From Octopus vulgaris (taxonomy: Eukaryota): a DNA stretch of 64,000 nt. Within the stretch, counting starts at the first letter, position 1. Each line of letters opens with the position of its first letter. The stretch spans positions 22,506,001 to 22,570,000 of the forward strand of contig OX597820.1 in NCBI GenBank assembly GCA_951406725.2, in the 5' to 3' direction. Positions 19,002-22,000 of the stretch are shown here, piece by piece. A program made the position numbers.

Positions 19002-22000
19002 TTTCTTTAGAAACAGTTCATTGAAATCAATTATGTATATCTAGTGTTTGGAAATATGAGAAAAGAAACTCACATCAGGAGTGGAATATGAGACAATCTC
19101 TGGTGTCTGTTTAGAATTGAACTCCTTGGGAAAGAAGTTTGTATAGTCCCAGATGAGGCACGAGTACCCCCATCAACTCACTGCTGGTTCATCTTATCAT
19201 ATTGACAGCAACTCTTGTAAAAGGTGATTATTGTTCTGTTCTGAAACAAAGGGAAAAAATGGTTATGTGAGGGAGAAAGAGGAAAGAAAGAGGAAAGAAA
19301 GAAAAAAGAAGACTGAGAAAGAGGGAGAGAGGGCAAAAGGGAAAGATAGAGAAATGGAACAATTCTATAAGATGGAACTAGCACTCTTTTACTCTTTTAC
19401 TTGTTTCAGTCATTTGACTGTGGTCATGCTGGAGCACCGCCTTTAGTCAAGCAAATCGACCCCAGGACTTATTCTTTGTAAGCTTAGCACTCATTCTATC
19501 GGTCTCTTTTGCCAAACCGCTAAGTTACGGGGACGTAAACACACCAGCATCAGTTGTCAAGTGATGTTAGGGGGACAAACACAGACATACAAACATATAC
19601 ACACACATACATATATATGCATATATACGACAGGTTTCTTTCAGTTTCTGTCTACCAAATCCACTCACAAGGCTTTGGTTGACCCGAGGCTATAGTAGAA
19701 GACACTTGCTCAAGGTGCCACACATTGGGACTGAACCTGGAACCATGTGGTTGGTAAGCAAGCTACTTACCACACAGCTACTCCTACACCTATGTACTGT
19801 GAGGCATTTTATGCTAGTGCACTTAATCAGCAGTACCCCAACTTTTTGGGGCTGCTGCCCCCTTGACACCCAGGCCACATTCTTAATGCCCTAACCCCAA
19901 CTAACAACCACAAACACAGACCTCTTTCTGAAGCAAATTCAAAGCAACTGCATTTCACAAATGAAACTTAACCTCATGAACCCATTATTTTGTTGAGGGA
20001 AATCACTACCCCATTATCGCCCCACTTTTTACATGAATTGCTACCCCATTTTCACCCCACTTTTCTTCAACTTTCCACCGCCCCCAAGGGGACAATTCCA
20101 TCCACTTTGGGAACCACTGTGCTTAATGATCAGTAGCTCCAAGAACCAGAAGCCATTATAGAAGTGATAGGAAAGACAAAGACCGGAGACAAAACACCTG
20201 GGTGCCAGAGGCTGGAATGTATCCATTGGTGATTGAGTGTTAATTAGTCAGGTGGTTCTTCTCAGGAATGTGTGTATGGATGTTTGGACAAGTTGCGCGT
20301 GCAAATGTGCAAATGATGCATTTGTCATGTAATATATTTTTAGTTTCCAATTTTCATATTTGAATCACTGCTATTTCTGTTAGCTCGCTGCCTAATCAGA
20401 AATATAATTTTGAAATGTTCAAGGTGTTATAAGGAAGATCTGACCAAAGACTTTGCAATTCAAAAAAGTAGGAGAAAACTTTCCAAATACAAATAAAATG
20501 GAAGCATACAACAATAAACATTATTTTCCATCTTACTGTTAGTCTTTGTTTCATTTTGAAAAATAAAAATTTCTTTTATGGTTTATCATTGTTTATATTT
20601 TGAATTACATATACAAGGGGGCACCAAAATCTTTTAACTGTTTAGGGCCTCAATGGGTCTTAATCCAACCCTGTATCTGAGACAGGTAAGCTTGCTGGTC
20701 ACTTAACCTTTTTGTTACCGACCTGGCTGAAACTGGCTCTAGCTCTGTAATACAAATGTCTTGTTTTCATAAGCTTTGATTTAAAATCTTCCACCAAAAC
20801 TTAGTCACAATTAATGTTCCTAACACTAGCTTAATGACAACTAAGTTATTTTACTAAATTCTTTGTTATATCAAAAATAATTGAGAGAAACACAGAGCAT
20901 CTCAAAATAAGTACAGCAACGAAAGAGTTAATAGTAGTTGGCTGTTTATTGTTGCTGTCATTTTGATGTGATAATAAAAGCAGTGAGAGAAGAAGACCTT
21001 GTCAGTTGGGTCATTGTAGTGAAGTAGTGAAAGTAATAACCCTTCTGTGTTGAAGAAGGGAGATACCCAGGCCAACTGGCCTGGTTATAAAATATAGTTT
21101 TCTTAGTGGATGTGTCTCTAGAATAAAGTAGGACACAAACTGTCAAGAATGAACTCTCTGCATTTGCTTATATTACAGAGTTAAGTGACTGATTTAATAA
21201 GACGAGGTCATGGAAAGACAAGTAGAACTTTAAGAAACAAATTTTCTGACTCCTTTGAAGATAAAAAATTTATAGGTGCAGGAGTGGCTGTGTGGTAAGA
21301 AGCTTGCTTCCCAACCACATGGTTCCAGGTTCAGTCCCACTGCGTGGCACTTTGGGCAAATGTCTTCTACTATAGCCTCAGGCTGAGCAAAGCCTTGTAA
21401 GTGGATTTGGTAGACGGAAACTGAAAGAAGCTTGTCATGTGTGTATATATATGTGTGTGTATGTGGAGGCCCAATGGCCCAGTGGTTAGGGCAGCGAACT
21501 CGCGGTCGTATGATCGCGGTTTCAATCCCCAGACCGGGCATTGTGAGTGTTTATTGAGCAAAAACACCTAAAGCTCCATGAGGATCTGGCAGGAGGTGAT
21601 GGCAATCCCAGCTGTACTCTTTTGCTACAACTTTCTCTCACTCTTTCTTCTGTTGGCATTCTCGCTTAGCCAGCAGGGTGGTGTCATTTGAAGGCTAAAA
21701 CAATGTGAAGCGGATTGTGACCAGCGATGTGTAGCAACATCTGAAAGCCTGGTCGGTCATGGTGATCACGGTGATATGTGCGCGTATATGTATATATATG
21801 TATATATGTATGTATTTCTGTATTTGTGTTTGTCCCCACCCATCATCACTTGATGACTGATGTTGGCGTGTTTATGACTCTGTAACTTAGTGGTTTGGCA
21901 AAAGAGACCGATAGAATAATTACTAGGCTTACAAAGAATAAGTCCTGGGGTTGATTTGTTCGACTAAAAGCAGGTGCTCCAGAATGAGTGAAATAAGTAA

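What the first reader, a model, noticed from the sequence alone, without database searches (positions are those of the whole stretch)
19119..19190. Possible decaying mir-1990 relic upstream of mir-1986
Seen: a minus-strand hairpin 1.6 kb upstream of mir-1986, in the same orientation. Both arms resemble recalled miR-1990 arms and the 3p seed GGGACUA is retained, but the stem has many mismatches. My unverified recollection is that miR-1990 is mantle-associated in shelled molluscs and has been reported missing from coleoid cephalopods. Inference: either a pseudogenised or a diverged, overlooked orthologue. If the recollection holds, it could be a molecular fossil linked to shell loss.
Basis: partly seen in the sequence, partly recalled or inferred. 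Interest (0 to 1): 0.7.

Follow-up and report, generated by a model that had tools for sequence, protein, structure and literature searches.

The report
Decayed mir-1990 remnant beside mir-1986
This is most likely the dead remnant of an old microRNA gene (mir-1990), still lying at its ancestral place just upstream of the intact mir-1986 gene in what looks like an octopus-type genome, showing that the gene decayed in place and was not deleted.

Summary
The resemblance is real. On the minus strand, 19168-19182 matches the first 15 nt of published miR-1990-5p with one mismatch (3 of 100 shuffles do as well). The 3p seed GGGACTA lies 17 nt downstream at 19144-19150. An intact mir-1986 hairpin lies 1.6 kb downstream at 17461-17522. 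In the Pacific oyster, mir-1990 sits 330 bp upstream of mir-1986 on the same strand, so order and orientation agree.

The stretch does not fold as a pre-miRNA. Its best fold is two small hairpins (z -0.65). The ancestral-register hairpin has about 1e-10 to 1e-8 of the ensemble. On average 0.16 arm-to-arm pairs are expected, against 20.8 for mir-1986.

MirGeneDB 2.1 lists Mir-1990 for Nautilus but not for Octopus vulgaris, O. bimaculoides or Euprymna.

Verdict: a pseudogenised Mir-1990 relic, confidence about 0.7. The link to shell loss is untested. It is weakened because shell-less annelids keep the family and octopus keeps the partner mir-1986, which is mantle-high in pearl oyster. No cephalopod genomes or small-RNA reads were available here.

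The parts
19161..19182 (-). Remnant of the Mir-1990 5p arm. Positions 1-15 (19168-19182) match with one change (position 4, at 19179, inside the 5p seed). There is one extra G in the G-run 19167-19171. The 3' third has diverged.
   Evidence: By-eye comparison with the oyster precursor and bgl/hru-miR-1990-5p: 17 of 22 positions identical.
19152..19160 (-). Former terminal loop, 9 nt against 13 nt in oyster. It now pairs with the 5p arm in the predicted fold.
   Evidence: and the precursor.
19130..19151 (-). Remnant of the Mir-1990 3p arm, the dominant arm in oyster. Seed positions 2-8 are intact at 19144-19150. The 3' part is partly diverged and now pairs with the downstream flank.
   Evidence: By-eye comparison with cgi-miR-1990-3p: 14 of 21 identical. 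No hit to the 16-nt 3p motif at up to 3 mismatches.
19119..19190 (-). It is single-copy in the window and is not a pre-miRNA-like hairpin.
   Evidence: (blastn against the window: no second copy). No Rfam family matched, even in a 191-nt search at E up to 10.
17461..17522 (-). Intact mir-1986 hairpin, the ancestral downstream neighbour of mir-1990.
   Evidence: RF03753, 32.4 bits, full-length 1-60 of 60. (-33.0 kcal/mol single hairpin for 17446-17537). (0.3 percentile of 1384 windows of 80 nt). 3p arm 22 of 22 identical to bgl-miR-1986-3p.
18321..18875 (.). Inverted-repeat element (106-nt arms, 85% complementary) inserted between the relic and mir-1986. With the microsatellites at about 18310-18350, 18920-19000 and 17700-17960, it accounts for part of the widening of the spacer from 330 bp (oyster) to 1.6 kb.
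   Evidence: Its 116-aa ORF 18462-18812(-) has no Pfam match.

Best explanation
The stretch 19119-19190(-) is the decayed, no longer processable remnant of the lophotrochozoan microRNA gene Mir-1990. It lies at its ancestral place upstream of Mir-1986 in a probably octopod genome.

Shown here:
- It is homologous in sequence and position to Mir-1990.
- Its two arms can no longer form the stem that Drosha and Dicer need.

Inferred:
- It yields no mature miRNA and is evolving without constraint.
- At most it is carried along as part of the primary transcript of mir-1986.
- The family's absence from the octopus miRNA lists is a true loss by point mutation and small indel, not by deletion.
For: Sequence:
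- The 5p 15-mer matches with 1 mismatch, a unique hit in 128 kb of both strands. 3 of 100 shuffles give any such hit.
- The 3p seed lies on the same strand 17 nt downstream of the 5p-like 15-mer (9 nt after the 22-nt 5p arm).
- By eye against, 31 of 43 arm positions are identical.

Position:
- Oyster Table S4 puts cgi-mir-1990 at scaffold264:40650-40726(+) and cgi-mir-1986 at 41056-41133(+), labelled 'cluster7'.
- The window has the same order and orientation, with mir-1986 at 17461-17522(-).
- Mir-1990 and Mir-1986 are also adjacent rows in the MirGeneDB 2.1 sheets of Lottia, Crassostrea, Nautilus and Lingula. In Capitella they are separated only by Mir-2692.
- Rough joint chance of 5p block, seed within about 36 nt, and position within 2 kb upstream of mir-1986: 0.03 x 0.0017 x 0.016, about 1e-6. 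This is my arithmetic. It is post hoc and assumes independence.

Structure lost:
- The best fold is two small hairpins, z -0.65.
- The hairpin anchored in the ancestral register is -4.4 against -20.3 kcal/mol, with 8 arm-to-arm pairs and an ensemble share of 1.8e-10 to 9e-9 at 37 C. At 15 C the share is 9e-14 to 2e-11.
- Mapped onto the oyster structure, 13 of 18 duplex pairs survive (4 of them G-U) and 2 of 8 lower-stem pairs survive (by eye). Those 13 pairs evaluate to +13.7 kcal/mol.
- Expected arm-to-arm pairs are 0.16, against 20.8 for mir-1986.

Database:
- The full O. vulgaris sheet of MirGeneDB 2.1 holds 46 conserved families with Mir-1986 but no Mir-1990.
- Obi- and Esc-Mir-1990 have 0 occurrences, while Npo-Mir-1990 is present.
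- That annotation used a covariance model for every conserved family, plus whole-body and 18-tissue small-RNA libraries.
Against: - I saw no small-RNA reads and no second cephalopod genome, so neither expression nor constraint was measured.
- 72% arm identity is high if constraint was lost before the octopus-squid split. The pattern is patchy: 14 of 15, then seed 7 of 7, then 10 of 21 elsewhere. By my binomial estimate this is still compatible with uniform decay at about 28% divergence.
- Thermodynamic predictions are models. Proteins or neighbouring hairpins can assist the processing of poor substrates.
- The species is not established. The only named relatives of the window's LINE reverse transcriptase are 2 Argonauta hians proteins at 63-64% identity, among 120 listed hits.
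[quoted passage not shown] MIR-1990 was therefore either outside their 'expected 48' or the published lists are incomplete. Their supplementary PDF could not be read here, and their data archive held no text that these tools could read.
Confidence: 0.7

Rival explanations
1. A diverged but still functional Mir-1990 orthologue that annotation overlooked. It would be processed despite a poor stem, for example at low level, in an unsampled tissue such as the shell sac or stylet epithelium, or with help from the clustered mir-1986 hairpin.
For: - The seed of the arm that dominates in oyster (3p: 2,418,030 reads against 21,267 for 5p) is intact.
- 14 of 15 positions at the 5p start are kept.
- Four of the surviving pairs changed by transitions that keep pairing as G-U or U-A (by eye).
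- It lies on the same strand as an active miRNA gene.
Against: - The arms do not pair: 0.16 expected pairs, and an ancestral hairpin share of 1e-8 or less.
- The lower stem is gone, with 2 of 8 pairs kept.
- The distance to mir-1986 is 1.6 kb.
- Covariance-model and whole-body small-RNA annotation of two octopuses and a squid listed no Mir-1990.
Confidence: 0.12
2. The remnant is kept for another role. It might be a structured element of the mir-1986 primary transcript (the two small hairpins of the best fold), or a source of some non-miRNA small RNA.
For: - The best fold uses the old loop and the downstream flank to make two new stems of 14 and 8 pairs.
- Conservation relative to the ancestral arms is patchy.
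Against: - The fold is no better than shuffled sequence: z -0.65 and +0.42.
- It ranks at the 9.5 percentile among 1384 local 80-nt windows.
- No Rfam family matches.
- No comparative data were available.
Confidence: 0.1
3. Chance resemblance. An unrelated sequence happens to carry a miR-1990-like 15-mer and a 7-mer.
For: - 3 of 100 shuffles of the window give a 15-mer hit with up to 1 mismatch.
- GGGACTA is no more frequent than chance overall: 6 copies against 4.84 expected.
- The finding was selected after the fact by a reader looking for miRNA-like strings.
Against: The joint arrangement (5p block, then seed 17 nt downstream of it on the same strand, further 3p matches, and a position just upstream of mir-1986 as in oyster) has a rough chance of about 1e-6.
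Confidence: 0.04

Closest known systems
MIR-1990 family (MirGeneDB; miRBase mir-1990), e.g. Cgi-Mir-1990 of Crassostrea gigas
   Same: - The 5p start matches at 14 of 15 positions and the 3p seed is identical.
- The arms are in the right order with a short loop between them.
- It lies upstream of Mir-1986 on the same strand.
   Different: - There is no stable hairpin: the oyster precursor is -35.3 kcal/mol for 77 nt, and here the ancestral register is -4.4 kcal/mol.
- The 5p seed is changed at position 4.
- There is one extra G.
- 7 of 21 positions in the 3p arm are changed.
- The lower stem is lost.
- The spacer to Mir-1986 is 1.6 kb instead of 330 bp.
Mir-1990/Mir-1986 cluster of lophotrochozoans
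   Same: The downstream member is intact here. Both families are assigned to the Lophotrochozoa node in MirGeneDB 3.0 Table S1.
   Different: - Here only one member is alive.
- Nautilus lists both members. Euprymna lists neither.
- The two octopuses list only Mir-1986, which is the state seen in this window.
[quoted passage not shown] 2022)
   Same: A conserved family is present in Nautilus and absent from coleoid lists.
   Different: Those losses were reported as 'not found in genomes'. Here a recognisable remnant is still in place. MIR-1990 is not named as a loss in the passages of that paper that I read.

Membership tests
MIR-1990 (as a sequence homologue) | Similarity of both arms to family members, including the seed of the dominant 3p arm | tested here: met
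   The 5p 15-mer has 1 mismatch and is unique in the window. The 3p seed matches 7 of 7. By eye against, 17 of 22 and 14 of 21 positions match.
MIR-1990 (as a sequence homologue) | Conserved genomic position next to Mir-1986, same strand, upstream | tested here: met
   Oyster coordinates are and the window's mir-1986 is. Row adjacency in the Lgi, Cgi, Npo, Lan and Cte sheets is only suggestive, because I do not know the basis of the row order.
MIR-1990 (as a functional miRNA gene) | Imperfect hairpin with at least about 16 paired positions between the two arms (MirGeneDB criterion, recalled and not read here) | tested here: not met
   The best ancestral-register fold has 8 arm-to-arm pairs at -4.4 kcal/mol. 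The 13 nominal pairs evaluate to +13.7 kcal/mol. 0.16 pairs are expected in the ensemble.
MIR-1990 (as a functional miRNA gene) | Paired lower stem below the Drosha cut | tested here: not met
   2 of 8 oyster lower-stem pairs survive (by eye). No basal helix continuous with an arm duplex appears.
MIR-1990 (as a functional miRNA gene) | Unchanged 5p seed | tested here: not met
   A to G at 5p position 4 (19179).
MIR-1990 (as a functional miRNA gene) | Small-RNA reads from both arms with fixed 5' ends and 2-nt offsets | not testable with these tools
   No read data were available. MirGeneDB 2.1 lists no Mir-1990 for Ovu, Obi or Esc.
MIR-1990 (as a functional miRNA gene) | Match to a family covariance model | tested here: inconclusive
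   No Rfam 15 family of any kind reached E 10 on this strand at the arms. I could not establish whether Rfam 15 holds a mir-1990 model, and the MirMachine model was not available.
mir-1986 (RF03753), for the neighbour at 17461-17522 | Hairpin plus conserved 3p mature sequence | tested here: met
   Full-length Rfam match of 32.4 bits, below the gathering score of 50. 3p arm 22 of 22 identical to bgl-miR-1986-3p. Single hairpin of -33.0 kcal/mol.

The most novel reading that the evidence does not exclude
The remnant is not fully dead. The intact 3p seed and the nearly intact 5p start could be kept by selection, and the locus could still release a small RNA with the miR-1990-3p seed by a non-canonical route. 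Alternatively it died only recently, within octopods and independently of squids. That would allow the stepwise loss of a mantle miRNA to be dated against the stepwise reduction of the cephalopod shell.
Probability: 0.1. Interest if true: 0.65.

Novelty: new member of a known kind. Interest (0 to 1): 0.38.

Why it matters
Conserved miRNA families are rarely lost, and such losses are usually recorded only as 'not found'. A recognisable remnant at the ancestral position shows three things:
- The absence of Mir-1990 from octopus lists is a real loss by decay, not an assembly gap or a deletion.
- The Mir-1990/Mir-1986 cluster goes back at least to the mollusc ancestor.
- It offers a locus where the timing of the loss can be read from genome alignments of octopods, squids and Nautilus.

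It also flags that the published count of coleoid family losses (two) may be short by at least one. The proposed tie to shell reduction is attractive, because the miRNA is mantle-specific in oysters and kept by shelled Nautilus. It remains conjecture.

Tried and rejected
- Rfam at gathering thresholds over the whole window gave 0 matches.
- Rfam at E up to 10 on 5 kb and on 191 nt found nothing at the candidate.
- The whole-window Rfam scan at E up to 0.5 returned 100 sub-threshold hits. Almost all were mir-297, mir-466, mir-3149 or mir-1277 on TA/TG microsatellites, which are artefacts.
- The full 22-nt 5p motif at up to 3 mismatches and the 16-nt 3p motif at up to 3 mismatches gave 0 hits each. 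No second, better mir-1990 copy was found in the window this way.
- The Zolotarov supplements (tables S1-S5) hold no miRNA list. The data archive yielded about 100 characters and the PDF cannot be read.
- The latest version of the Platynereis genome preprint no longer contains 'mir-1990'.
- The Deroceras slug paper has no mention of the family in its main text.
- 'Mle-Mir-1990' and 'Mle-Mir-1986' gave 0 occurrences, but I do not know that a Melibe sheet exists in that file, so this says nothing.
- Species identification from a LINE ORF gave only 2 named hits, both Argonauta hians, among 120 listed.
The comparison was made by eye on the text.
Cross-species conservation therefore stayed unchecked.

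Full report
**What is there**

Read on the minus strand, the flagged stretch 19190-19119 has three parts:
- a 22-nt block at 19182-19161;
- 9 nt at 19160-19152;
- a 22-nt block at 19151-19130.

I searched with the published miR-1990-5p, taken from the Biomphalaria table of PMC7328434. There it is identical to the abalone sequence.
- Its first 15 nt hit the window once, at 19168-19182(-), with one mismatch.
- At up to 1 mismatch, 3 of 100 dinucleotide shuffles give any hit, with a mean of 0.03.
- The full 22-mer at up to 3 mismatches and the 16-nt 3p motif at up to 3 mismatches give no hit.
- The 3p seed GGGACTA is at 19144-19150(-). It is one of 6 copies in the window, against 4.84 expected.

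I then compared the stretch by eye with the oyster precursor and structure printed from Table S4 of PMC4138081.
- The 5p arm keeps 17 of 22 positions and has one extra G.
- The 3p arm keeps 14 of 21 positions.
- The loop is 9 nt instead of 13 nt.

**The neighbour and the synteny**

mir-1986 is at 17461-17522(-).
- Rfam RF03753 matches at full length with 32.4 bits, below the gathering score of 50. The E-value is 0.0027 in the 5-kb search and 0.035 in the whole-window search.
- Its 3p arm is 22 of 22 identical to bgl-miR-1986-3p.
- It folds as one clean hairpin of -33.0 kcal/mol over 92 nt.

In C. gigas, cgi-mir-1990 is at scaffold264:40650-40726(+) and cgi-mir-1986 is at 41056-41133(+). Both are labelled cluster7. 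So mir-1990 lies 330 bp upstream of mir-1986 on the same strand, which is the arrangement seen in the window with a 1.6-kb spacer.

In the MirGeneDB 2.1 supplement, the two genes are adjacent rows in the Lottia, Crassostrea, Nautilus and Lingula sheets. In Capitella they are separated only by Mir-2692. I do not know how the rows are ordered, so this is only suggestive.

The wider spacer here contains:
- an inverted-repeat element at 18321-18875, with 106-nt arms that are 85% complementary;
- several microsatellites.

My rough joint chance for the 5p block, the nearby seed and the position next to mir-1986 is about 1e-6. It comes, is post hoc, and assumes independence. I therefore take homology with Mir-1990 as established at about 0.9.

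**It is not a hairpin any more**
- RNAfold of the 72 nt gives two small stem-loops. The 5p arm pairs with the old loop, and the 3p tail pairs with the downstream flank. The energy is -20.3 kcal/mol, z is -0.65, and 43 of 200 shuffles fold as well.
- With flanks (121 nt), z is +0.42 and 128 of 200 shuffles fold as well.
- I forced two anchor pairs of the ancestral register. This gives -4.4 kcal/mol for 72 nt, with 8 arm-to-arm pairs and an ensemble share of 1.8e-10. For 101 nt and 141 nt the shares are 9e-9 and 9e-10. At 15 C the shares are 9e-14 and 2e-11.
- Mapped onto the oyster structure by eye, 13 of 18 duplex pairs survive (4 as G-U) and 5 are broken. Only 2 of 8 lower-stem pairs survive. 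The 13 surviving pairs evaluate to +13.7 kcal/mol.
- The expected number of arm-to-arm pairs in the ensemble is 0.16, against 20.8 for the two halves of mir-1986.
- I scanned 1384 windows of 80 nt over 15000-22000(-). mir-1986 is at the 0.3 percentile with one loop and 28 pairs. The candidate is at the 9.5 percentile with two loops.
- The stretch is single-copy in the window (blastn).
- No Rfam family matches it, even in a 191-nt search. I could not tell whether Rfam holds a mir-1990 model.

**Which organism**
- The window has no N. It is rich in microsatellites and retroelement fragments.
- A LINE reverse-transcriptase ORF at 46870-48480(-), with Pfam RVT_1 at 8e-31, finds 120 listed relatives. 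Only 2 carry an organism name, both Argonauta hians, at 64% and 63% identity.
- That points to an octopod-like genome, but weakly.
- The state 'Mir-1986 present, Mir-1990 not intact' matches the two octopus lists. It matches neither Nautilus (both present) nor Euprymna (neither listed).

**What the literature says**

Expression in bivalves:
- cgi-miR-1990-3p is mantle-specific in oyster (passage).
- miR-1990c-3p is mantle-high in pearl oyster and is predicted to target MMP and SGMP1 (passages). A third paper repeats this (passages).
- The pearl-oyster 'miR-876' primers spell the miR-1986 sequence. The cluster partner is therefore mantle-high there too.

Family history:
- MirGeneDB 3.0 Table S1 assigns MIR-1986, MIR-1990 and MIR-1994 to the Lophotrochozoa node (supplement passage).
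- Annelids and Lingula carry the family.

Cephalopod annotation:
- Zolotarov et al. 2022 (passages and section 35 read) and the preprint (passage) state that 46 of 48 expected families were recovered in octopus. They name only MIR-1989 and MIR-242 as lost in coleoids.
- The complete O. vulgaris sheet of the MirGeneDB 2.1 supplement holds exactly 46 conserved families by my count. It includes Mir-1986 but not Mir-1990.
- Obi-Mir-1990 and Esc-Mir-1990 have 0 occurrences, and Npo-Mir-1990 is present.
- MIR-1990 is therefore silently absent from the coleoid lists.

Searches:
- A full-text search for 'mir-1990' found 13 papers, none on cephalopods by title.
- A search for coleoid, miRNA, biomineralization and mantle together found 3 papers, none describing such a remnant.
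- I therefore found no description of this relic in print. Supplements I could not read may bear on this: the Zolotarov PDF and data archive, and bioRxiv supplements.

**Reading**

Most likely (0.7) this is a pseudogenised Mir-1990 with these features:
- it is homologous to the family and sits at the syntenic position;
- it can no longer give a Drosha/Dicer substrate;
- it decayed by substitutions (five pairs broken), one inserted G, a shortened loop and loss of the lower stem;
- transposon and microsatellite insertions have pushed it away from mir-1986.

Arm divergence from the conserved mollusc sequence is 12 of 43 positions, about 0.35 substitutions per site by Jukes-Cantor (my arithmetic). 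Without a measured neutral rate this cannot separate a loss in the coleoid stem from a later loss in octopods. The patchy pattern is compatible with uniform decay by a simple binomial estimate, so it is not evidence of constraint.

The rivals are:
- a still-processed diverged orthologue (0.12);
- retention for another role (0.1);
- chance resemblance (0.04).

**The shell-loss link**

In favour:
- the miRNA is expressed in the mantle in bivalves;
- shelled Nautilus retains it and coleoid lists lack it.

Against:
- the family predates molluscs and persists in shell-less annelids;
- mir-1986, which is also mantle-high in pearl oyster, is kept by octopus;
- this is a single evolutionary transition, so it is one data point.

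Nothing here tests the link.

**Limits**
- No cephalopod genome collection and no small-RNA data were available.

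Noticed in passing
window 4800-4900 (+), core 4816-4883: A near-perfect long palindromic hairpin: -49.6 kcal/mol, z -11.2, and 0 of 200 shuffles fold as well. It gives sub-threshold Rfam mir-239 hits on both strands: 35.8 and 32.4 bits against a gathering score of 49. It looks more like a foldback or MITE-type repeat than a conserved miRNA.
   Followed up: partly
window 18321-18875: An inverted-repeat element with 106-nt arms that are 85% complementary. It encloses a 116-aa ORF at 18462-18812(-) with no Pfam match. It is inserted between the mir-1990 remnant and mir-1986.
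   Followed up: partly
window 46870-48480 (-); also 5190-5672 and 5377-7092 (-): A LINE-type reverse-transcriptase ORF of 536 aa (RVT_1). The only named relatives are from Argonauta hians. Two shorter ORFs near 5.2-7.1 kb repeat its C-terminal region and are embedded in long TA/TG microsatellites.
   Followed up: partly
window 17700-17960: An (ATG/GAT)n microsatellite directly upstream of mir-1986. It gives long spurious ORFs on both strands and weak C/D-box snoRNA-like Rfam hits. I take these as artefacts.
   Followed up: no
whole window: About 90 of 100 sub-threshold Rfam hits are mir-297, mir-466, mir-3149, mir-1277 or mir-568 on TA/TG repeats. This is a typical false-positive class for dinucleotide repeats.
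   Followed up: no
literature (PMC9699675 against the PMC8728216 supplement): [quoted passage not shown] The O. vulgaris gene list has 46 conserved families and also lacks Mir-1990, Mir-1985 and Mir-92. Mir-1985 is also unlisted for Nautilus and O. bimaculoides. Euprymna lists neither Mir-1986 nor Mir-1990. The basis of the 'expected 48' could not be checked.
   Followed up: partly
literature (PMC6627748): The pearl-oyster 'miR-876' qPCR primers spell the miR-1986-3p sequence. The mantle-enriched 'miR-876' of that paper, and of PMC11067994, is probably miR-1986.
   Followed up: partly
window 28178-28477 (+): A 99-aa ORF whose sequence resembles the C-terminal part of a mariner-type transposase. 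This rests on my recollection of the motif only. Pfam gave no match at E up to 0.01.
   Followed up: no
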